A stretch of DNA of 64,000 nt, from IMG/VR virus record IMGVR_UViG_3300048080_000202, positions 1,859 to 65,858 of that record. One strand, 5' to 3'. The translations under genes and the position numbers were made by a program. This document shows positions 2,969-43,040 of the stretch, piece by piece; position 1 is the first letter of the stretch; the number at the start of each line of letters is the position of its first letter. The notes under the pieces were generated by a model. The model searched no databases. It saw only the letters and a program-made list of their open reading frames with translations, and was not told the DNA's origin. Origin of the DNA: a virus.

Positions 2969-3413
2969 GCGGGGTGGCGAAGCCGAGGGTTAGGAGGAAC
3001 TCACCACCGGGGCGGACTCTGCGAGTCTTTCCGGAGTGAGCTTTCATGTGGGAGAGAATGCGTTGAGTGGAGAGGGGAATGGTTTCATCACAGACATCAC
3101 AGCGGAAGTCTTGGAGTTCCACGCCGGTTTCTGCGAGGCGTGCCCACCCAGGCCATTCCTTCTCGGATTCCTTGAGGGTGAGTTTGAAACCTCCCCCATG
3201 TTCCGGGACGTGAGCAAGCATGGTGTCCACGCTGCGTGGGAGGCGAGTGTGGCAGGACATATCTCGGCGATGAATTGGGGCGTAGCCGAGGCAGAGGATT
3301 TCTTTGGGGTGAAGACGGGCTTTGATAAAAGCCAGCCAGTTGGTGAGGGACTTGGGAGAGTCGGAAGCTCTCACTGGTGCGATATCGGGCATTGGGACTC
3401 CAATGAAAATCAA
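2937..3413 (-). CDS. Hypothetical protein with C2H2-type zinc finger
   Basis: 'CDVCDETIPLSTQRILSHMKAH'; lies in operon order between the capsid-associated gene and the GT9 gene. Confidence 0.6.
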   Translation of the reverse strand: MIFIGVPMPDIAPVRASDSPKSLTNWLAFIKARLHPKEILCLGYAPIHRRDMSCHTRLPRSVDTMLAHVPEHGGGFKLTLKESEKEWPGWARLAETGVELQDFRCDVCDETIPLSTQRILSHMKAHSGKTRRVRPGGEFLLTLGFATPLAANDTDDDI

Positions 3414-22157: not shown

Positions 22158-23415
22158 CCACCAGTATCTCTGACCCTGTTATCCTGTTAGAAGTCCAGGA
22201 CTGGTTGTGTGAGAAACCGGACTTCAAGGAATTGCGAATTTTCAAGCTCCGTTATCTCATGAAGTGGGGGATAATGCCTTTAGACGTTTTGGACAGAGTG
22301 ACGCGTGGGGAGTTGACGATGGCGGACGCCCTGGGAGGGGCGAAAGAATGAATGTGATTAGCATTCCTTGTGAATGGAAGTTGTTGTACTATGTGTATGC
22401 CCCGTTTTTGTTGTTTGCGAGGCAGCGCTTATGAACACCGAACACGAGGTGGACAAACGCGACACGAATGTGACTTTCTGTCGCACGTGTGGGTACCTCG
22501 CTGGTAAATCCCCCAAAGCGAGAGCGGAGTCGTTTTGCGTTGGGGATGTGAGAGACCCCGGGAAGGAGATTTTTGATGCTGAAGTTAGCTGAATGTCCGG
22601 TCTGTGAAACGTGCTTATACGACGGGCATTCACCCAAGACTCATGGGTTCCTGGCGAAGATGCGCAGGTTTGTGAGGCGTCACAAGGAGTGCAAACGTGC
22701 AAAGAAGAAATAAATGGGGTGTGAGAGAAGCACTATTGGCGGAAGCCCAACACATCCTGTGGTTGTTCAATAACCACTTCATCCAGGGTTGGGAGTTTGT
22801 GCTTCGCAGCACCCGGGTAAAGCGAAGGATGGAGAAAGTGGGGATGATAGTATGAAACACCAACGTATATTGTACGAGGAGATTCTTGCCAAGAATTTCG
22901 TTTGGCAAAAACTAGAGGAAGGTCATAGCGTGGCTATGGCAGTAGAGATTTCAGGAGTTCAAACAAAGTACTATGTTAATTGGGATTGAGCGTACCTCGA
23001 TTTAATTCTATAACATGCTTATAGAATTAAATGGGGGTTACTAAACGTTCACCTTCAAAAGCCATAGCAGATTTAAGGCGGGTAACCCCCAAAAGGGAGC
23101 CATTGGAATGACACACCCAAAGCGCGATGGATGGAAGGGCCGGAAGGCGAGTGGGGGACGGGCGAATGTGCCGGATACACGGGTGAAGCCCGAGCGTCCT
23201 CGGCAGGTGTGGGTGTTGGAACCGGGGTTGGAGCGTTTTGAACCCATGAAGATTTTGTCCACAGGAGATCGCACGTGAAATCCCCACGGTCCTATCTCCG
23301 ACGGCTGGGAAAGCGTCGATACCCAAGAAGTGGAAGCCAACCCAAAAGGAGCGTGCCATGCGCGATACCGAACCGATCGACGAGTAGACTAATGAGCAAT
23401 TCGACGGCCATGAGA

Positions 23416-23690
23416 TAGTGTTTCGACCCACCCTGCGAGGTAACATCCCCCAAGGCGGTATTGGGGTTTCATCCCTCGTGGGGGTGGGTGGGGTCACTAC
23501 AGTGGAGGCATCTAGCACCATAGGTGCAGAGTGAACCTAAGCACTCACGCTTCCCCCAAGAAATAGACCACCACGCGCAATACCCGTTGAAGCTAGAAAC
23601 ACACTCGGCATACGCGGGGCATAGCAGCAGGTGAAATAGTGTGATAGTAACCTGTGGAACGGAACTCTAATCCGTCGGAGTGGTGGTCTA
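23416..23690 (+). ncRNA. Candidate structured non-coding RNA
   Basis: Long hairpin 23416-23499, then a multibranch domain closed by an 11-bp TAGACCACCAC/GTGGTGGTCTA stem with a possible loop-loop pairing. Confidence 0.5.
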
Positions 23691-24487
23691 AAATAATTAA
23701 GAGGAAAGATATGTTTTCAAGATTGATTGTCGCAATCATGTTCATATGGGCGTTATTCGCCTTATTCACCTCCGAGGAGTACGAAACTCCTGAGAGTGTG
23801 AGTGTACCAAGGGTGAGGTTGTAAGGGAAGCCATGGAGCTAACTCTCCTCGACCGCCTCAAAGCAGAGAATCTCCTCCTCGCGGAGATTGACTTCCGTCG
23901 TGCATGTGAGGGGGATGTGAATGAGGAGCTTGCCATTCCGGCGATTGACCCCGAACACACATACCATCTTGCGCAGATTGTAGAGCACACACTTGTGGCG
24001 AGACACCTCCGAGAGTTAGAGGAGGAGTGGAGGGGGAATCCCGGGAACCCAAGGGTTGTGAGTACTCTTTCTGCTCTTGAATGTGCCGCGTGTGACATGG
24101 CGGGGGTGGCGGAGAGGATAAGGAAGGCGTGGGGGTATCGAAATGACTAAACTCCGGAAGTCCCAGAAGCATACCCTTCGTGTGTGGATTGCTGCAACTA
24201 GGAAAGCTGTTAAGAAGGGTAAAGAACCGCCTCCTGCCCCAAGGTTTAACTGAGGTTAATATGCAAAGATCGTGGAAACAAATCTTATTTCCAACCACTA
24301 TTCTAGGTCGCCCTTATACTCCAGAAGAGAAGCTAGCCACCGATGAGGACATGATGGGTGAAGAAAGGTGCGCGATGATTTACGAAATGCGCACTGGTGG
24401 GCGGTGTCTGCTGATAGATACAATGGTAGGTGGGTTTCTCACAGCTATGTTGCTGGCTTTAGTTGTAGTGCTGGTGGCGGTGGTTTT

Positions 24488-25012
24488 GTGAAAACCGTTC
24501 TTTTCGTCGACGGTGGGTATGTGGAGAAGATTTCCCAAGCCCGTTTGGACTACCGAAAGCTCCCAGGGGCGCTCCTCAAAGCTGTAGGGGGAGGTCACCT
24601 GCTTCGCACGTATTATTATGATTGTGTGCCAGGGCAATATGAGAGTAATAAGCAGAAGTTCTTGGATGCTTTAACATACATCCCAAATTTCGTAGTGCGA
24701 TATGGACACCTTGAAAAGCATGTGGGAAAGGATGGGGAAGAAGTATTCACCCAGAAGATGACGGATGTCCAGCTAGCATTGGATGTATTAAAAGCGGCAC
24801 AGAATGGGGTGGAGAGAGTGATTGTTATGACCGGGGACATGGATTTTGTCCCGGTGTTTGAAGCAGCAAGGGAGGTAATGTGTGAAGTGGTGTTGGTTAG
24901 TGGAACCGGGGTGACGCCGATGTTGGCGGGGAGTGTGGATAGGAAAGTGACGTTTGGGGGGGTGTTGCAAGAGGAATGTCGGTGGAAGAATGGGGAGGAG
25001 AGAATATTATGA
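24488..25012 (+). CDS. NYN-domain (LabA/DUF88, PIN-like) ribonuclease
   Basis: GTG start overlaps the upstream stop; 'FVDGGY', 'RTYYYD', 'QKMTDVQLALD' and 'MTGDMDFVPV' carry all the acidic catalytic residues. Confidence 0.85.
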   Translation: MKTVLFVDGGYVEKISQARLDYRKLPGALLKAVGGGHLLRTYYYDCVPGQYESNKQKFLDALTYIPNFVVRYGHLEKHVGKDGEEVFTQKMTDVQLALDVLKAAQNGVERVIVMTGDMDFVPVFEAAREVMCEVVLVSGTGVTPMLAGSVDRKVTFGGVLQEECRWKNGEERIL

Positions 25013-25863
25013 AATGCGCAGCATGGGATCGACTTATTGACTTAGGGGAACCAAGTTGTAAAGAGTCTAATGAAGAGTTCTTATGTACATTAGGAGATGG
25101 ACACCTATATGAATGCCATGCGCACAGTGCAAATGGGAACTGCCTTCATATTTGGATGGCGGTCAAGAAAACACCGCGTCAAGTGCGCATGGAGAGGAAC
25201 AACAGGAATGAAGGAAGGTAAGGGAGGAAATATGAACGAAGGTGAAACTCTCTTTAGTTTAATAGGTGCAATGCTTGATGGGCTTAAAAACCCGCCCCAG
25301 CCCATGTTTCGCACTCAATGTGATAATGGGTTATCTGTTTCTACTGTGAACACCTCTGATATGGGAATGGAAACAGCAATTATTGCGCATTGTCATGCGC
25401 ATCCTGTGGAGAGATACAAGGATTCTGCGAAAGCCGCAAAAGCGGGACACAAAAAGTGGGTGGAGTTTTGTAACCAAGAGAATGTGATTGGGAAGAAGAT
25501 TACTGAGCTTGGGTGTGGGTGTGTTGAGAGTAGGGAAATAACTCTATGAACAAAGAGTGGCAATTTATAAGACATCGACTTCGTGGTGAAGTGTTAACTG
25601 TGAAACGCAACGGGAGGACTTGGGCAGAATTCCTCCCCTCCACCCTTGATTCAGCCAAACTTTACGCAGAGCGGTGGTGTGTGTGAGTGAAAAGCAACGA
25701 AAGCAGTTGTGGAATAATGGTGTGGAGTTGGAAGCGTCAAAACTAGGAAACGTGCGGTCGCAATTGAGTCCTGATTGTGAGTGGAGTTTTACTGGGAAGA
25801 AGAAATTTGGGGGGAATGTGATTGCAGCAGAGAAATTGGTGGCTGGAAAGTTTGGTCGTTAAA

Positions 25864-25952
25864 GCTGGCATGGTAAAGAGGGGAGTTACATCATACTGCT
25901 ATTATGTGGGGGCGCAAGCTCCCAGTCGCTCCCTTCGTTTGTTCCTGCCAGC
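25864..25952 (+). ncRNA. Y-RNA-like RNA 1
   Basis: GCTGGCA/TGCCAGC terminal stem, TGGTAAAG/CGTTTGTTCC internal loop, GAGGGGAG/CTCCCTTC upper stem and a GCAA tetraloop hairpin. Confidence 0.75.
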
Positions 25953-25959
25953 AAAAGTT

Positions 25960-26032
25960 CTTGGGTGTGGTGAAGTTGGGGATTCCTTCATTTTGGAATG
26001 ATAAAGAGCCCCGGCGTTTGTGCCCACCCAAG
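25960..26032 (+). ncRNA. Y-RNA-like RNA 2
   Basis: CTTGGGTG/CACCCAAG terminal stem, TGGTGAAG/CGTTTGTGCC loop and GTTGGGG/CCCCGGC upper stem. Confidence 0.7.
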
Positions 26033-26038
26033 GAGAGA

Positions 26039-26134
26039 TTCCAACATGGTGAAGAGTGGAAATCCTTCATTGGAGCAGGAATGCTGCTTCGGCAAGCGCC
26101 TGCATTTAGGTCCGCTCGTTTGTTCCTGTTGGAA
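26039..26134 (+). ncRNA. Y-RNA-like RNA 3
   Basis: TTCCAACA/TGTTGGAA terminal stem, TGGTGAAG/CGTTTGTTCC loop, GAGTGGA/TCCGCTC upper stem and a UUCG hairpin; ends 17 nt before the Ro60 start. Confidence 0.75.
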
Positions 26135-26151
26135 GCATTAAAGGAGATAAT

Positions 26152-27507
26152 GTGAAAATCAATCATAAACCCGCTCCGATATTCACTCATGAAGGTGGAA
26201 GGGCTTCCAGGACGTCGGATGTTAATACGCTTCGACGGTTGGTGTTGAATTGTCTTCTTTGGGAACCGACGTTTTATGAAAGTGGCAATGCGATTGCGGC
26301 ACAGATTGCAAAGTTGGTGTCTAAGATTGATCCTCAAACTGTTGGTGATCTGGCGAAAGAAGCGCGGAATAATATGTATCTGCGGCATGTCCCATTGTTC
26401 CTTGCAAGGGAGTTGGCAAGAAAAGGTAATGGCTCGATTGTGGCAGATGTGTTGGAGGAAGTTGTACAACGTGCGGATGAGTTAACGGAGTTTCTTGTTA
26501 TTTATTGGAAGGACGGAAGGAGCCCTTTGAGTGCGGGGGTCAAACGCGGACTCGCCAAGGCATTCCGAAAGTTCAACGTCTATCAGCTTGCGAAGTATGA
26601 TCGCGCAAACACGGTGAGGTTGAGGGATGTATTGTTTCTTACCCATCCCAAACCCAAGGACCAAGACCAACAAGACGTGTGGGACAAGTTGGTGCAAAAT
26701 GAGCTTGAGGCTCCAGACACTTGGGAGGTAGCACTGAGCGCGGGGATGAACAAGAAAGAAACATGGGAGAGATTATTGAGGGAAAAGAGGCTGGGTGGAT
26801 TGGCTACTCTCCGAAATCTCCGAAACATGTTGTCTGTTAGTGTGGATGTGGAGTTAATCAAGGAACGTTTGAATGACTCCATGGGAAAGATATTTCCGTA
26901 TCGGTTTATCACAGCAGCTAAGTATGCCCCGAAATTGGAGGCTGCTCTCGAACACGCAATGCTTGGAGCGATTGATAAAGAGTTGGTTCTCAAAGGGAGA
27001 ACATGCCTTGTTGTGGATGTGAGTGGGTCGATGGATGGAGCAATGAGCAAGAAATCTGAAGCCACAAGAATTGACACTGCATGTGGATTGGCAGTATTAC
27101 TTCGTGAGGTGTGTGAGGACTTGGTGGTATATGCAACTGGGGGAGATGATGGAAGGAACATTCACGCCACAGCGGAGGTGCCTGCAAGACATGGATTTGC
27201 ATTGAGAGATGCAATTGATGGATTAAAGGGTAAATTGGGTGGTGGGGGAATATTTCTTGCTCAATGTATGGATTATATTGCCAGTAAGGAGAAAGCGGAA
27301 TTCGAAAGAGTGATTGTGTTGACAGATGAACAGGATTGTGATAGAAATCGCACAGCGATGTCAGCGAAGAAATTGGGGAAGGTGAATTATACATTGAATT
27401 TAGCTTCGTATCAGAATGGTACTAGCTATGGGAGCGGTTGGCATCTTGTGAATGGCTGGAGCGACCAAGTAGTGAGATATATTCAATTGTTGGAGAGTGA
27501 GCAATGA
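26152..27507 (+). CDS. rsr: Ro60-related (TROVE + vWA) RNA-binding protein
   Basis: 'THEGG', 'LRRLVLNCLLWEPTFYE', 'YQLAKY...LRDVL.L.HPKP' and 'TWE..LS'; vWA MIDAS 'VDVSGSM' and 'VLTDEQ'. Confidence 0.95.
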   Translation: MKINHKPAPIFTHEGGRASRTSDVNTLRRLVLNCLLWEPTFYESGNAIAAQIAKLVSKIDPQTVGDLAKEARNNMYLRHVPLFLARELARKGNGSIVADVLEEVVQRADELTEFLVIYWKDGRSPLSAGVKRGLAKAFRKFNVYQLAKYDRANTVRLRDVLFLTHPKPKDQDQQDVWDKLVQNELEAPDTWEVALSAGMNKKETWERLLREKRLGGLATLRNLRNMLSVSVDVELIKERLNDSMGKIFPYRFITAAKYAPKLEAALEHAMLGAIDKELVLKGRTCLVVDVSGSMDGAMSKKSEATRIDTACGLAVLLREVCEDLVVYATGGDDGRNIHATAEVPARHGFALRDAIDGLKGKLGGGGIFLAQCMDYIASKEKAEFERVIVLTDEQDCDRNRTAMSAKKLGKVNYTLNLASYQNGTSYGSGWHLVNGWSDQVVRYIQLLESEQ

Positions 27508-28220
27508 TTCATGGTTACAACGCTGAACCCACTGGAGGTTGGGTTATTCAGGGAGTTGTAAAAAACCCAATCGGAGTAGAATTAGAGGTGGATTATCAGG
27601 GGTATGAGCCAACTAATCAGCACTATTGTTGTATAGACTGCCATGGTCCTCGCAGCATATGGGAGGGCCAAAGACTAGAGTCAATTCAAACAAAAATTGA
27701 TGAAAAACTAGCAGAAGTGAAATGGCTGTTTCTCAAACGAGACAGCTCGCTCAAGAACGGCGTGGAGGTTGTGAGTCATCCGATGGGACTAGGGAGTCAC
27801 AAGAGAAAGTGGCCGGAGGTATTGGAGTTTTTGGGGGGTGTGGGAAAGTTGCGGCCACACGATGAACAGGGGCTTCATTTTCATTTTAAAGTTCAGGAAT
27901 ATCAGATAGTACGGGATTTTGTATTAGACTATCCTAAAGAATTACAAGAGATTGCGGGGAGGGGAGAGAATGAATTTTGTGTGTTTAACAAAGGAAATCA
28001 TCACCATTCTGTTATTAACCGCCGAGACGATAACAGATGTGAGTTTAGGCTCTGTCGATCGACAGTGAAGATAGATGAATTCTTTGCTCGTCTTGAACTC
28101 GCTCATGCGCTTGCATCGATTGCGAGTGTGGAGGAGATGGAGTGGGGGGAGTTTTGGGAGAGGTGTCAAGAGAGGCCGGTGATGTATAAGGAATTGTTAT
28201 TGATTGGGGGAAAGTCATGA
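27504..28220 (+). CDS. Amidoligase-like (COOH-NH2 ligase family) protein
   Basis: 'IGVELEV', 'DSSL.NGVEVVSHP', 'GLHFHF' and 'EFRL'. Confidence 0.7.
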   Translation: MIHGYNAEPTGGWVIQGVVKNPIGVELEVDYQGYEPTNQHYCCIDCHGPRSIWEGQRLESIQTKIDEKLAEVKWLFLKRDSSLKNGVEVVSHPMGLGSHKRKWPEVLEFLGGVGKLRPHDEQGLHFHFKVQEYQIVRDFVLDYPKELQEIAGRGENEFCVFNKGNHHHSVINRRDDNRCEFRLCRSTVKIDEFFARLELAHALASIASVEEMEWGEFWERCQERPVMYKELLLIGGKS

Positions 28221-30030
28221 CCCCACAATACCGACTGTCGGAGTTTGGCGGGGATATAGAGATAGTTGATAATAACACTGGATGGGTTGAGTGTGTGGTG
28301 GGTATAGAATATAAAGAGGACATGGAGAGATATGTGGAGTATTTGAATGGAAAAGACGTGGATGATCGGTTGGGGGCGGTGGAGAAATGAAACCAACAAG
28401 TTTAATATGGAATATTTTCCTAGTTAGTGGGTGTGCATATCTAGTATTTTGGAAAGGGGCGTCTCCCTGGTGGCTATTGATACTACCGTTTTTCACATTA
28501 TGGACAATCACCTTAGATAAGAAGGAAAAGGGATAAGTCTAAATGAAGTGTCCATTATGCAAGAGTAAAAAAACAGAATCCATAAGCCACTATGTGTACA
28601 CGGATTGGTGTAAGACTTGCGGGACATTGTTTAGAAACGGGGTTGTTAATCGCCCTGATCGTTGGGTGAGTGAAGCAGAGTTTCGGTGGTCAACAAAGAT
28701 GTTGCTAATTGAGCTACAGAAGAGACTTTTAACGAAAAGAGGTTTGAAACAATTAAGAGTAATAGCACACCAATGTGGGTGTGGTGCCCACAGTACTTGC
28801 TCAGACTGTCAAGTTCCAGAATGGATGAGGTTTACAAAATAGTGGACAAACCCCATATTGGGCTGTTGCTTTTTTGGATCTTTGCAAATCTTGTGGTGTG
28901 GTTTGGGAGGAAGAGATGAAAATAGTCGTTGGTATAATACTGATCTTTGCCCCACCGGAGGAATACGAGTGTTATGGAGATGACATATTGGATTCACGGT
29001 GGGTTTGTCCATGCCGGGTGTTTATGCTAGCAAGATTCGATGTGTTTTTACTATGAATCTCCTTGAACTCCTTTTCTGCCCCCAACACGGGATGTTAGGG
29101 GTGTTACTATTGATTCCCACTTCAGCGTGTTTGAGGTATGTAAAAGTTTGGTGGAGGAGGAGAAATGCTTGATCTAACAAAGAAGATACAAACACGAGGC
29201 GGATATCCTGTAAGAATACTTGAATCCAACCTCAGGGGAAATGATTTCCCAACTAGCAAAACTATCGCCATTCTCCACACATTCTTCGAAGGCACCGAAG
29301 GAGACGGACTTGAGTGAAAAAGCAATAACACTCCGTTTACTCTCCCCAAAGGAAGTATGTGAGGAATTCGGGCACCTCGCAATCACCATTGAGCCCGAGC
29401 AAGGGAAGTATGCAAAGTGGTGCCCGAGGTGCGGGGAGAGAGTGAGTGTGGATACGCCGGGGAGGATTGTATGAAATCAACTGCGTGGGGCATTGTTCTC
29501 GTGTTATTTTGCACGTTTGGACTCCCAACACTATTTTTGTTTGGGGCTAAATGGATAGCGGTACTGTCAAGGTGGTTGAATCTATGAAATCAATCATTAT
29601 CGTCGGAAACGTGGTGGATGGGTTGAATTTCTATGGACCGTTTGATAATGCGGGGGATGCAATGAAGTATGCGGAAGATATATTTAAGAATTCCACCTGG
29701 TTGGTGACGACATTGTATAGCAGGAATTCCCCAATAGTTCGAGGATTCAAAAATGTACTCTGACGGGCAAATAATTCACAATTTTGACACAGGGAAGCCT
29801 ATAAAAGTGGGGGATGGGCGATCTGCATTCGTGTGGGCTGGACTACCCAAAAGACATACACATTATTTAAGGGGTAAAGGAGTATTCTTGGCTGCCTCTG
29901 TTAAAGAAGCGTGGAAATTACTTCTTCAAGGACTTATTGTGCCTGCGCCTTGTGGGGAGAATCATTGTTGGGATTGTAGAAATTGGCTGAGTAATTCTAA
30001 AGCGAATTGGTGTAAGAATAAGGACCACAA

Positions 30031-41594: not shown

Positions 41595-41996
41595 TTGCAA
41601 AAACTGGATAAACGTTATATTGCTGGATTCTTTGATGGGGAAGGAAGCATTGGAATATATCGTAATAAAGGTTCCAAGGACGACCGTTATTTATCTGGCT
41701 ACAGAAGACCTTGTTGGGTTCGTGTTGTTACTATAAATGTTGCTTATAAATCAACTTTAAGCTTGATTCACAAGCAATTTGGAGGTTCATTTAGATTATT
41801 ATACGGTAGAGATAAAAGATGGAAGCCAATCTGGTCTTGGAGTATTGGGTCAAAAGAAGGTATCAAAAGATTTTTAACCTTTATACTATCCTACATAAGA
41901 GAAAAGAAGAAACAAGCTAAAGTAATGATAAGAGTTTGTAATAACAAGTTGAATGATGAAATTGCAGCAAAGCTGTTAAAAGAGTTAAAAAAATGA
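41595..41996 (+). CDS. LAGLIDADG homing endonuclease (single motif)
   Basis: 'YIAGFFDGEGSIGI'; AT-rich and free-standing. Confidence 0.9.
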   Translation: MQKLDKRYIAGFFDGEGSIGIYRNKGSKDDRYLSGYRRPCWVRVVTINVAYKSTLSLIHKQFGGSFRLLYGRDKRWKPIWSWSIGSKEGIKRFLTFILSYIREKKKQAKVMIRVCNNKLNDEIAAKLLKELKK

Positions 41997-42943
41997 TAAG
42001 CTCATACCCAAAAGTGTGGAATCTCGGTCACCGAGCAATCCGGGATCTATTCACCGCCCCGTGTGTAGTCGAAGAAAAAGTTGATGGCTCTCAAATCAGC
42101 TTTGGAATGATTGATGGTGAGCTTCATATCCGCAGTAGGGGTGCCACGATCAATCCCGACGCCCCAGATAATATGTTTAGTCTTGGGGTAACAGAGATCA
42201 AGAAACTTGCACCAATGTTGCATCCGGGGTGGATATATCGAGGGGAGTATCTGAGAAAACCAAAACACAACACCCTCACATATTCTCGAAACCCAAATAA
42301 ATATATCATTATTTTTGATATCCAAACTGGAGAAGAAACATATCTTGATGCGACCGATCGCCGAAACGAATGCTCAAGTGTGGGGTTAGAGGTCGTACCA
42401 ATTCTTGGAATGTTCGGGGGAGGTCTCCTTACAACTGATATATTGAAGGGTTTGTTAGAGCAAGAGAGTTTCTTGGGGGGCGTAAAGATCGAAGGTGTGG
42501 TCGTAAAACCCGTTGATTATAATCTCTTTGGTGAAGACAAGAAAGTTTTGATGGGGAAGTATGTCTCGGAAGCATTCAAGGAAAAGCATTCGAATGAGTG
42601 GAAAAATAGTAATCCAAGCAATGGGGACATTCTCCTCAACCTTGGTGAAACGTATCGAACAGTACCAAGATGGGAAAAAGCTGTGCAACATTTGCGGGAT
42701 GCTGGGACGTTGGAAAACTCTCCACGAGACATCGGGTCTATTATTCTTTCGGTAAAGAAAGATGTGCAGGAAGAGTGCGAAGACGAAATCAAAGATGCCT
42801 TATGGCGTTGGGCATGGCCACACATTCAAAGGAAGATTGTGGCAGGGGTGGCCGAGTGGTACAAAGAACGTTTATTAGAACAACAATTTGCGCAGGACGG
42901 GGTTCGAGACCCCGCACTGGCAGATGCCGGTGATGGTGTATAA
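41993..42943 (+). CDS. ATP-dependent RNA ligase (Rnl2-like family)
   Basis: Motif I 'EEKVDGS', III 'YRGEY', IIIa 'IFDI', IV 'EGVVVK' and V 'MGKYV'. Confidence 0.8.
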   Translation: MISSYPKVWNLGHRAIRDLFTAPCVVEEKVDGSQISFGMIDGELHIRSRGATINPDAPDNMFSLGVTEIKKLAPMLHPGWIYRGEYLRKPKHNTLTYSRNPNKYIIIFDIQTGEETYLDATDRRNECSSVGLEVVPILGMFGGGLLTTDILKGLLEQESFLGGVKIEGVVVKPVDYNLFGEDKKVLMGKYVSEAFKEKHSNEWKNSNPSNGDILLNLGETYRTVPRWEKAVQHLRDAGTLENSPRDIGSIILSVKKDVQEECEDEIKDALWRWAWPHIQRKIVAGVAEWYKERLLEQQFAQDGVRDPALADAGDGV

Positions 42944-42965: not shown

Positions 42966-43040
42966 GTGACCGTAGCTTAATGGTAAAACGATAGTTTGTG
43001 GGACTATTATATGAGGATTCAAATTCCTTCGGTCACCCCA
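42966..43040 (+). tRNA. tRNA-His(GTG), atypical
   Basis: GTGACCG/CGGTCAC acceptor, C73, encoded CCA, and ATAGT-TTGTGGG-ACTAT anticodon arm. Confidence 0.8.

What the first reader, a model, noticed from the sequence alone, without database searches (positions are those of the whole stretch)
25864..27507. Three tandem compact Y-RNA-like genes feeding directly into a phage Ro60
Seen: the 290 nt before the Ro60 start are tiled by three self-complementary elements of 89, 73 and 96 nt. Their stems differ in sequence but all pair (GCTGGCA/TGCCAGC, CTTGGGTG/CACCCAAG, TTCCAACA/TGTTGGAA). All three keep the same internal loop, 5'-UGGU(G/A)AAG...CGUUUGU(U/G)CC-3', and a (U/A)UNC(A/U)UC tract after the upper stem. 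That is covariation within one genome. Established: bacterial Ro60 (Rsr) binds Y RNAs encoded beside it, including in some phages, and YrlA-type RNAs carry a tRNA-like domain. Inference: these are Y RNAs that lack the tRNA-like domain and differ only in their apical modules, possibly three adaptors that route one Ro60 to different partners or substrates.
Basis: partly seen in the sequence, partly recalled or inferred. Interest (0 to 1): 0.9.

Follow-up and report, generated by a model that had tools for sequence, protein, structure and literature searches.

The report
Three short Y RNAs before phage Ro60
Three small structured RNA genes directly in front of a phage's Ro60 gene belong to the widespread bacterial and phage Y-RNA family that partners with Ro60. 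They are a new example of a known system whose only unusual trait is that none of them carries the usual tRNA-like part.

Summary
Three stem-closed elements (25864-25952, 25960-26032, 26039-26134, + strand) fill the gap before a TROVE/Ro60 gene (26152-27507) in a complete 75-kb phage genome.

A covariance model built only from short elements upstream of related Ro60 genes, with no window sequence, finds exactly these three in the whole genome (E 5e-13 to 3e-9). It also finds 268 more in 162 related loci. Every one lies on the Ro60 strand and upstream of the gene.

The shared "handle" is UGGYGNAG / CGNNNNUUCC plus NUACUUC. It is a variant of the published bacterial Y-RNA Ro60-binding motif GNCGAA(N)G plus YUAY.

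The tRNA-like domain is absent. Rfam YrlA gives no hit in the genome, although it does detect tRNA-like members in the relatives' arrays.

Short Y RNAs without a full tRNA-like domain are already known (YrlB, Yrn2, phiLo Yrl1/Yrl2). Tandem arrays are common, and this scan has reported such arrays on many other genomes. The verdict is a new member of a known kind. The "three adaptors" idea remains untested. No RNA data exist for this phage.

The parts
25864..25952 (+). Y RNA-like gene 1 (W1, 89 nt). Closing stem 25864-25870/25946-25952. Handle UGGUAAAG 25871-25878 and CGUUUGUUCC 25936-25945. Second stem 25879-25885/25929-25935. UUACAUC 25886-25892. The apical part is a mini-hairpin with a 7-nt loop CUGCUAU plus a GC-rich hairpin capped by GCAA.
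   Evidence: Sequence; fold z -4.6; R1 hit 44.8 bits, E 2e-11. The G-to-A change at handle position 5 occurs in only 3 of 271 family members. The apical type (7-nt loop plus GNRA hairpin) recurs in relatives.
25960..26032 (+). Y RNA-like gene 2 (W2, 73 nt; stem extendable to 25958-26034). Closing stem 25960-25967/26025-26032. Handle UGGUGAAG 25968-25975 and CGUUUGUGCC 26015-26024. Second stem 25976-25981/26009-26014. UUCCUUC 25983-25989. It has a single small apical hairpin and is the minimal type.
   Evidence: Sequence; fold z -3.5; best R1 hit, 50.1 bits, E 5e-13. The UGCC variant in place of UUCC occurs in 3 of 271 members.
26039..26134 (+). Y RNA-like gene 3 (W3, 96 nt). Closing stem 26039-26046/26127-26134. 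Handle UGGUGAAG 26047-26054 and CGUUUGUUCC 26117-26126. Second stem 26055-26060/26111-26116. AUCCUUC 26062-26068. The apical part is a small hairpin plus a longer hairpin capped by UUCG.
   Evidence: Sequence; fold z -3.2; R1 hit 38 bits, E 3e-9.
26141..26146 (+). Shine-Dalgarno AAGGAG, 5 nt before the GTG start of Ro60. It lies in the loop of a weak AU hairpin.
   Evidence: Sequence; fold of the 331-nt context.
26152..27507 (+). Compact Ro60 (TROVE + vWA) gene, 451 aa, GTG start.
   Evidence: Pfam TROVE 2.7e-16 and vWA_Ro60 7.8e-4; PHROG 850 7e-39; PDB 9KOP/9L5Y phiLo Ro60 3.6e-29 over residues 5-448. The start is supported by the invariant N4, T12 and G15, and the MIDAS D289-x-S291-x-S293 is invariant in 28 homologues.

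Best explanation
The 290 nt before the phage Ro60 gene encode three tandem Y RNAs of the bacterial/phage Y RNA-like (Yrl) family. All three are of the short kind: a Ro60-binding handle plus a small apical module, with no tRNA-like domain.

Each RNA is closed by pairing of its 5' and 3' ends. Directly above that stem sits the conserved handle, 5' UGGYGNAG facing 3' CGNNNNUUCC. It most likely forms a distorted helix (G-C, G-C, Y.U, G.U), followed by a 6-7 bp stem and the NUACUUC motif.

By analogy with characterised Y RNAs, the Ro60 ring binds this handle. The apical part then points away and either gates Ro60 or tethers it to another factor. In Deinococcus, Salmonella and phage phiLo that factor is the exoribonuclease PNPase.

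No promoter or terminator is predicted nearby and the spacers are only 6-17 nt. The three RNAs are therefore probably cut out of the same long rightward transcript that carries Ro60, as happens in Mycobacterium smegmatis.

What is shown: family membership, structure with compensatory changes, strict linkage to Ro60 genes, and absence of a tRNA-like member in the genome. What is inferred: expression, processing, Ro60 binding and the partner(s).
For: - **Independent model.** Model R1 was built from 12 short elements of relatives only. That alignment is 92% paired, with compensatory changes at 12 of 13 pairs; shuffled and slid controls are far lower. R1 hits exactly the three window elements (E 5e-13, 2e-11, 3e-9) and nothing else in the window or the genome.
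- **Linkage to Ro60.** R1 gives 132 hits in 82 metagenome loci and 136 hits in 80 bacterial genome loci (mostly Acidobacteriota). All are on the Ro60 strand and upstream of the gene. It also hits upstream of Ro60 in Xanthomonas phage Tenjo, Brevundimonas phage Gurke and CcrColossus.
- **Pairing across the family.** On 135 matches, 94% of cells are paired against 36-47% for slid partners (that alignment is fitted to the model).
- **Match to the published motif.** The handle corresponds to GNCGAA(N)G and the downstream YUAY described for YrlA/YrlB (PMC4201824). C and U alternate at the fourth position in the same family (156 U, 114 C).
- **Homology to true YrlA.** In relatives, the same handle encloses tRNA-like domains that Rfam YrlA recognises. 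The short and long forms are therefore homologous.
- **The protein.** It is a full-length Ro60 homologue with an intact MIDAS motif.
- **Precedent.** Phage phiLo Ro60 binds two short upstream Yrl RNAs and host PNPase in vitro (PMC12135203).
Against: - There is no expression data. Only the source DNA run holds the sequence.
- The literal motif GNCGAA is not present; the window has GGUGAA and GGUAAA.
- W1 and W2 each carry a substitution at a near-invariant handle position (3 of 271 each), which might weaken binding.
- The published phiLo Yrl1/Yrl2 are not matched by R1, so the one phage case with binding data does not transfer by homology.
- No + strand promoter or terminator was found in 23000-28245, so release as discrete RNAs depends on unverified processing.
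Confidence: 0.85

Rival explanations
1. The three structures are cis-acting parts of the Ro60 mRNA leader. Ro60 binds them on its own transcript, just upstream of the ribosome-binding site, and so controls its own translation or mRNA stability. They are never released as separate small RNAs.
For: The last element ends 6 nt before the Shine-Dalgarno sequence and 17 nt before the start codon. In many relatives the last element ends 19-60 nt before the gene. There is no predicted promoter or terminator between the elements and the gene.
Against: In M. smegmatis, upstream Y RNAs made from one precursor with rsr are processed and accumulate bound to Rsr (PMC4201824). In many relatives, elements of the same family lie 300-1300 nt from the gene, too far for RBS occlusion. 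The two roles are not mutually exclusive.
Confidence: 0.09
2. The elements are decaying remnants of a once mixed array. They are former YrlA-type genes that lost their tRNA-like inserts, and they no longer function.
For: Most related arrays contain a tRNA-like member and this one does not. W1 and W2 carry rare substitutions in the handle.
Against: All stems are intact and differ through compensatory changes. Both rare substitutions keep or improve pairing in the handle: G.U to A-U, and U.U to U.G. The same short types, both the minimal one and the 7-nt loop plus tetraloop hairpin one, recur in many genomes. Other arrays also show no tRNA-like member (L005, L015, L072, L078).
Confidence: 0.04
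3. The region is something unrelated: chance palindromes, a repeat family, terminators or attenuators, or the 83-aa ORF 25904-26155.
For: Mechanical ORFs overlap the region. Rfam has no family that matches it.
Against: The CM E-values come from a model that never saw the window. All 268 relatives sit in the same place and orientation with respect to Ro60. The substitutions preserve base pairs rather than codons. No terminator-like T tracts are present.
Confidence: 0.01

Closest known systems
YrlA (Rfam RF02553; Salmonella Typhimurium, Mycobacterium smegmatis, more than 250 bacteria and 22 phages; Chen et al. 2014, PMC4201824)
   Same: It is encoded next to Ro60 on the same strand. A 5'/3' closing stem carries the Ro60-binding motif (GNCGAA(N)G there, GGUGAAG or GGUAAAG here), followed by YUAY (UUAC in W1) and a UUGU-type 3' strand. 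In relatives of this phage the very same handle encloses YrlA-type tRNA-like domains.
   Different: The window elements have no T arm, D arm or acceptor-like arm. They are 73-96 nt long, against about 115-160 nt. RF02553 gives no hit at E<=10. The handle has U instead of C at the motif's third position.
YrlB (S. Typhimurium, M. smegmatis) and Yrn2 (Deinococcus radiodurans): the second, shorter Ro60-bound Y RNAs (PMC4201824)
   Same: They are short and lack a complete tRNA-like domain. They lie in tandem with other Y RNAs upstream of rsr and are processed from a common precursor. [quoted passage not shown]
   Different: In those species they accompany a tRNA-like Y RNA, whereas here the whole phage genome has none. 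That paper reports that BLASTN searches with YrlB found orthologues only in other Salmonella enterica serovars.
Thermus phage phiLo Ro60 with Yrl1 and Yrl2 (PMC12135203; PDB 9KOP, 9L5Y)
   Same: It is a phage Ro60 (27% identity, E 3.6e-29, full length) with two short Y-like RNAs just upstream. Binding to the phage Ro60 and to host PNPase has been shown in vitro.
   Different: The published Yrl1/Yrl2 were picked by a CGAA motif and are not matched by model R1. R1 instead hits an element just 3' of the phiLo gene. phiLo is a 178-kb thermophilic phage.
Y-RNA arrays of cultured phages: Xanthomonas phage Tenjo, Brevundimonas phage vB_BpoS-Gurke, Caulobacter phage CcrColossus
   Same: Their Ro60 proteins are the closest among cultured phages (44-47% identity). 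The same handle is present, with 3-5 tandem R1 hits upstream.
   Different: Their arrays mix short members with tRNA-like ones (RF02553 E 2e-10 to 7e-3). Some of the tRNA-like ones are annotated as tRNA genes.
Metazoan Y RNAs (Rfam RF00019)
   Same: The overall plan is the same: the termini pair, a conserved distorted helix binds Ro60 mainly through the 5' strand, and variable pyrimidine-rich distal parts bind other factors.
   Different: There is no detectable CM match. The motif is different (GGUCCGA/UUGAC), and in animals they are separate RNA polymerase III genes.

Membership tests
Bacterial/phage Y RNA (Yrl) family in the broad sense | Encoded within a few kb of a Ro60/TROVE gene, on the same strand | tested here: met
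   The elements lie 19-290 nt upstream on the + strand. All 268 family hits in relatives are likewise upstream on the gene's strand.
Bacterial/phage Y RNA (Yrl) family in the broad sense | Literal Ro60-binding motif GNCGAA(N0-1)G near the 5' end (PMC4201824) | tested here: not met
   The window has GGUGAAG (W2, W3) and GGUAAAG (W1), with U in place of C. Within the same aligned handle, 114 of 271 members have C and 156 have U, so this is a natural variant of the motif rather than a different site.
Bacterial/phage Y RNA (Yrl) family in the broad sense | Stem formed by the 5' and 3' ends that carries the motif, supported by covariation | tested here: met
   Handle pairs G2-C (A-U in three relatives) and G5.U (A-U in W1) are shown.
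Bacterial/phage Y RNA (Yrl) family in the broad sense | Physical association with Ro60 and Ro60-dependent accumulation | not testable with these tools
   No RNA run holds the sequence. This needs RIP, EMSA or Northern blots.
YrlA (RF02553) | tRNA-like domain (T arm, D arm, acceptor-like stem) | tested here: not met
   RF02553 gives no hit at E<=10 in 25600-26400, at E<=1 in the window, or at E<=10 in the genome. ARAGORN and the Rfam tRNA model find nothing there. No T-loop motif lies in the region. As positive controls, RF02553 hits relatives.
YrlB/Yrn2-type short Y RNA | Long hairpin closed by the termini, small pyrimidine-rich loop, no complete tRNA-like domain, second gene beside another Y RNA | tested here: inconclusive
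   The architecture fits: W2 is a single hairpin with UUCCUUCAUUUU, and W1 and W3 add a tetraloop hairpin where some relatives carry a T-arm. Sequence homology to the named RNAs could not be tested.
Metazoan Y RNA (RF00019) | Match to the family covariance model | tested here: not met
   No hit.
Ro60 / TROVE protein (the partner gene) | TROVE HEAT-repeat domain plus vWA domain with MIDAS motif | tested here: met
   Pfam TROVE 2.7e-16; vWA_Ro60 7.8e-4, below its cut-off. DxSxS (D289, S291, S293) is invariant among 28 homologues. Full-length match to phiLo Ro60 structures. The ring fold itself was not modelled.

The most novel reading that the evidence does not exclude
This complete phage genome runs a Ro60 system with no tRNA-mimicking Y RNA at all. 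Its three short Y RNAs share one handle but have recurrent, distinct apical types: minimal hairpin; 7-nt loop plus GNRA hairpin; small hairpin plus UUCG hairpin. Each could dock Ro60 onto a different partner, for example host PNPase, the phage NYN nuclease (24368-25012) or the phage RNA ligase (41993-42943). tRNA mimicry would then be dispensable, and the apical module would be the address label of Ro60 during infection.
Probability: 0.15. Interest if true: 0.55.

Novelty: new member of a known kind. Interest (0 to 1): 0.3.

Why it matters
On its own this locus adds one more phage to the list of Ro60/Y-RNA carriers.

Two points are of some use. First, a handle-only covariance model (R1) recovers about 270 Y RNAs with perfect strand and position specificity. 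About 70% of them are short forms, a kind the 2014 survey could not find by computation and that Rfam 15 does not match. Y-RNA arrays are therefore larger and more modular than annotation suggests.

Second, a complete phage genome whose array lacks any tRNA-like member is a counter-example to the generalisation that each species has at least one tRNA-like Y RNA. It also offers a small, clean system (three RNAs of 73-96 nt plus a 451-aa Ro60) for asking what non-tRNA-like Y RNAs do.

Tried and rejected
- **Rfam.** Gathering and permissive thresholds gave no Y_RNA, YrlA or tRNA hit on the elements. No Rfam 15 family reached the thresholds on the window's three short elements.
- **Searches for close relatives.** A single-protein scan of viral contigs found nothing. 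A distant DNA search of phage records with 24000-29000 found no match.
- **My first regex scan.** It was too strict on the 3' motif and missed several elements, for example in L003. The covariance model replaced it.
- **Pseudoknot idea.** I considered pairing between GAAG of the handle and CUUC of the NUACUUC motif. I rejected it by reading the variants: W1 (AAAG/CAUC), L057 and L009a (GAAG/CAUC) change one side without compensation. CUUC is instead mostly the 5' strand of a small UUC...GAA hairpin.
- **Conserved partner gene.** The ORF after Ro60 (27504-28220) has no similarity to the ORF after Ro60 in L005.
- **Promoter and terminator scan.** Nothing was found on the + strand between 23000 and 28245.
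- **Reviews.** PMC10870794 and PMC6542706 are not held. The supplementary tables of PMC4201824 are not held, so I could not check which phages and which short RNAs were listed there.
- **phiLo.** Its published Yrl1/Yrl2 region is not matched by R1, so it gives functional precedent but not homology.
Full report
**What is there**

The window is part of a 75,304-base IMG/VR virus record that CheckV rates 100% complete. It encodes a portal protein, a DNA polymerase and a primase.

Between the stop codon of a small upstream ORF (TAA, 25860-25862) and the GTG start of a 451-aa ORF (26152-27507) lie 289 nt. This stretch holds three stem-closed elements on the + strand:
- W1, 25864-25952 (89 nt);
- W2, 25960-26032 (73 nt, with the stem extendable to 25958-26034);
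- W3, 26039-26134 (96 nt).

All three elements share UGGU(G/A)AAG after the 5' stem strand, CGUUUGU(U/G)CC before the 3' stem strand, a second 6-7 bp stem, and a UUACAUC, UUCCUUC or AUCCUUC tract.

Each folds as proposed and better than its shuffles, with z-scores of -4.6, -3.5 and -3.2. The three domains form independently in the 331-nt context. Of 13 core pairs, 12 are canonical in all three and 10 of those differ between them.

**The gene**

The ORF is a compact Ro60.
- Pfam TROVE scores 2.7e-16, with a weaker vWA_Ro60 match.
- PHROG 850 'RNA-binding protein' scores 7e-39 over nearly the full length.
- It is similar over its full length to the solved Ro60 of Thermus phage phiLo, 9KOP/9L5Y, at E 3.6e-29.

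In an alignment with 27 homologues, the N-terminal residues N4, T12 and G15 are invariant, which supports the GTG start. The MIDAS residues D289, S291 and S293 are also invariant.

**Relatives**

The closest Ro60 proteins (46-61% identity) come from metagenomes. Their contigs have unannotated gaps upstream of the gene.

Reading those gaps shows the same kind of element in tandem: two in L005, four in L003 and two in L002. All carry the same handle.

In L003 and L002 the handle also encloses canonical tRNA-like domains. Rfam's YrlA model recognises these below its threshold, at E 2e-6 and 0.0035. The short elements and true YrlA-type RNAs therefore share one homologous handle.

**An independent test**

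I aligned 12 short elements from relatives, with no window sequence (A3). The two-helix structure is 92% paired, and 12 of 13 pairs show compensatory changes. It is far above the shuffled and slid controls.

The covariance model built from this alignment is R1.
- **In the window:** it finds exactly three significant hits on both strands, namely W2 (50.1 bits, E 5e-13), W1 (44.8 bits, 2e-11) and W3 (38 bits, 3e-9). The next hit is at E 0.29. The whole phage genome has no further copy.
- **In metagenome loci:** across 82 loci it finds 132 hits at E<=0.001, all on the Ro60 strand and all upstream of the gene, with 1-5 per locus.
- **In bacterial genomes:** across 80 loci, mostly Acidobacteriota, it finds 136 more hits with the same perfect strand and position specificity.
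- **In cultured phages:** it hits 3-5 tandem elements upstream of Ro60 in Xanthomonas phage Tenjo, Brevundimonas phage Gurke and Caulobacter phage CcrColossus.

On the 135-row alignment, 94% of cells pair against 36-47% for slid partners. That alignment is fitted to the model, so this figure is supportive rather than independent.

**The handle**

Over 271 elements the 5' motif is U-G-G-Y-G-N-A-G. The frequencies are U 98%, G 98%, G 99%, Y (U 58%, C 42%), G 99%, N, A 85% and G 92%. The 3' motif ends in UUCC in 250 of 271 elements. Among the 135 matches of alignment A4, 111 carry NUACUUC after the second stem.

This corresponds to the published bacterial Y-RNA features: the GNCGAA(N0-1)G motif thought to contact Rsr, and a conserved YUAY that follows it (PMC4201824).

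The window's GGUGAAG is the commonest form in this clade. W1's GGUAAAG is rare (A at that position in 3 of 271), and so is W2's UGCC (3 of 271).

Cross-tabulation suggests the so-called internal loop is partly helical. G2 pairs with the last C, and three relatives have A with U there. G5 faces U in 262 elements, A-U in 3 including W1, and G-C in 1. Y4 faces U as a mismatch, and in W2 this becomes U.G. Both rare window variants therefore keep or improve pairing.

**No tRNA-like domain**

RF02553 (YrlA) gives no hit at E<=10 in 25600-26400, at E<=1 in the window, or at E<=10 in the whole genome. ARAGORN and the Rfam tRNA model find only two tRNAs, near 43 kb. No T-loop motif lies in the region.

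The same searches do detect tRNA-like members in most related arrays: L002, L003, L009, L012, L025, L037, L038, L043, L052, L057 and the three cultured phages. Arrays without such a hit are a minority: the window, L005, L015, L072 and L078. Those other loci are contig fragments, whereas the window's genome is complete.

Element lengths in the family fall into two groups. There are 187 elements of 100 nt or less and 77 of 110 nt or more.

W2 is of the minimal single-hairpin type. W1 has a 7-nt loop (CUGCUAU) plus a GNRA-capped hairpin, and that type recurs in L003, L015, L076, L081 and L069. W3 has a UUCG-capped hairpin in the place where many 85-95-nt relatives carry a T-arm.

**How it most likely works**

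By homology and position, these are Ro60 partner RNAs. In characterised systems, Ro60 binds the conserved helix near the paired termini, mainly through the 5' strand. The distal part of the Y RNA binds another protein:
- PNPase in D. radiodurans and Salmonella (PMC4201824);
- host PNPase in vitro for phage phiLo, where the complex slows PNPase (PMC12135203).

I infer the same division of labour here.

Transcription is probably read-through from an upstream early promoter. No sigma-70-like promoter or intrinsic terminator is predicted on the + strand between 23000 and 28245. The spacers are 6-7 nt, and the last RNA ends 6 nt before the Shine-Dalgarno sequence. Release would therefore need processing, as shown for M. 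smegmatis YrlA/YrlB.

The neighbourhood has an RNA-metabolism flavour, but no link to the Y RNAs is shown. It contains:
- a NYN nuclease-domain protein at 24368-25012;
- a deaminase, a PD-(D/E)XK nuclease, and an RNA ligase at 41993-42943;
- two tRNAs.

**Rivals**

- A purely cis-acting autoregulatory leader is possible but less likely, because family members often lie hundreds of nt from the gene.
- Decay remnants are unlikely, given the intact, compensated stems and the recurrent short types.
- Chance, repeats or coding sequence are excluded.

**Comparison with what is known, and novelty**

Several Y RNAs upstream of rsr, including short ones without a full tRNA-like domain (YrlB, Yrn2), were described in 2014. 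Phage Y RNAs were reported in the same paper (22 phages), and phiLo added two short phage Yrl RNAs in 2025.

This scan has already reported tandem Y-RNA arrays next to Ro60 in many other genomes: 93 notes in at least 89 genomes. My results agree with those notes, which I did not re-test.

The window is therefore a new member of a known kind. Its one distinctive trait is that a complete genome lacks any tRNA-like member. This runs against the 2014 generalisation that each species has at least one. The adaptor hypothesis is plausible and in line with the literature, but it is untested.

**Limits**

- There are no RNA data.
- The reviews and the 2014 supplementary tables were not available.
- E-values from R1 are rough because calibration was shortened.
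- Absence of tRNA-like members in fragmentary contigs is not proof of absence.

Noticed in passing
L091:2981-3044 (Thermus phage phiLo, MH673673): Model R1 hits an element just 3' of the phiLo Ro60 gene (29 bits, E 3e-7). It overlaps the start of the annotated CDS phiLo_25 (3014-3250). The published Yrl1/Yrl2 lie upstream and are not matched. phiLo may carry a third, unreported Y-like RNA.
   Followed up: partly
L092:3124-3267 (Bacteroides phage crAss001, gap 3' of TROVE gp96): The ~900-nt unannotated gap after the crAss001 TROVE gene holds a 144-nt match to the tRNA model (46.6 bits) and a weak R1 hit (3190-3257, E 0.17). In crAss-like phages the Y RNA may lie downstream of Ro60 and be tRNA-like.
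   Followed up: no
L087:1266-1340 and L088:628-695: The annotated 'tRNA-Ser' of Brevundimonas phage Gurke and 'tRNA-Gln' of CcrColossus lie in the Y-RNA arrays and overlap sub-threshold YrlA hits. They are probably tRNA-like domains of Y RNAs rather than tRNA genes.
   Followed up: partly
L009:2880-3084: Just 3' of a related TROVE gene there is a sub-threshold match to archaeal RNase P RNA (RF00373, 42.5 bits, E 7e-9, gathering score 84). It is an unexplained structured RNA candidate.
   Followed up: no
window 42843-42915: A D-arm-like and T-arm-like sequence (GGGGTTCGAGACCCC) lies inside the 3' end of the RNA ligase ORF (41993-42943), just before tRNA-His (42966-43040). Neither ARAGORN nor Rfam calls it.
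   Followed up: no
window 27504-28220: A 238-aa ORF overlaps the Ro60 stop codon (ATGA), which suggests translational coupling. It matches only PHROG 16683 (unknown function, 3.8e-13). It has no similarity to the ORF in the same position in L005.
   Followed up: partly
window 24368-25012: A NYN-domain (putative RNase) protein (Pfam 3.6e-14) lies about 850 nt upstream on the same strand. Together with the RNA ligase at 41993-42943 and two tRNAs, it gives the early arm an RNA-metabolism character.
   Followed up: partly
L012:1028-1172 and L072:900-968: Three elements have UAG instead of UGG in the handle together with UUCU instead of UUCC. This is a compensatory G-C to A-U change and supports pairing of handle G2 with the last C.
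   Followed up: yes
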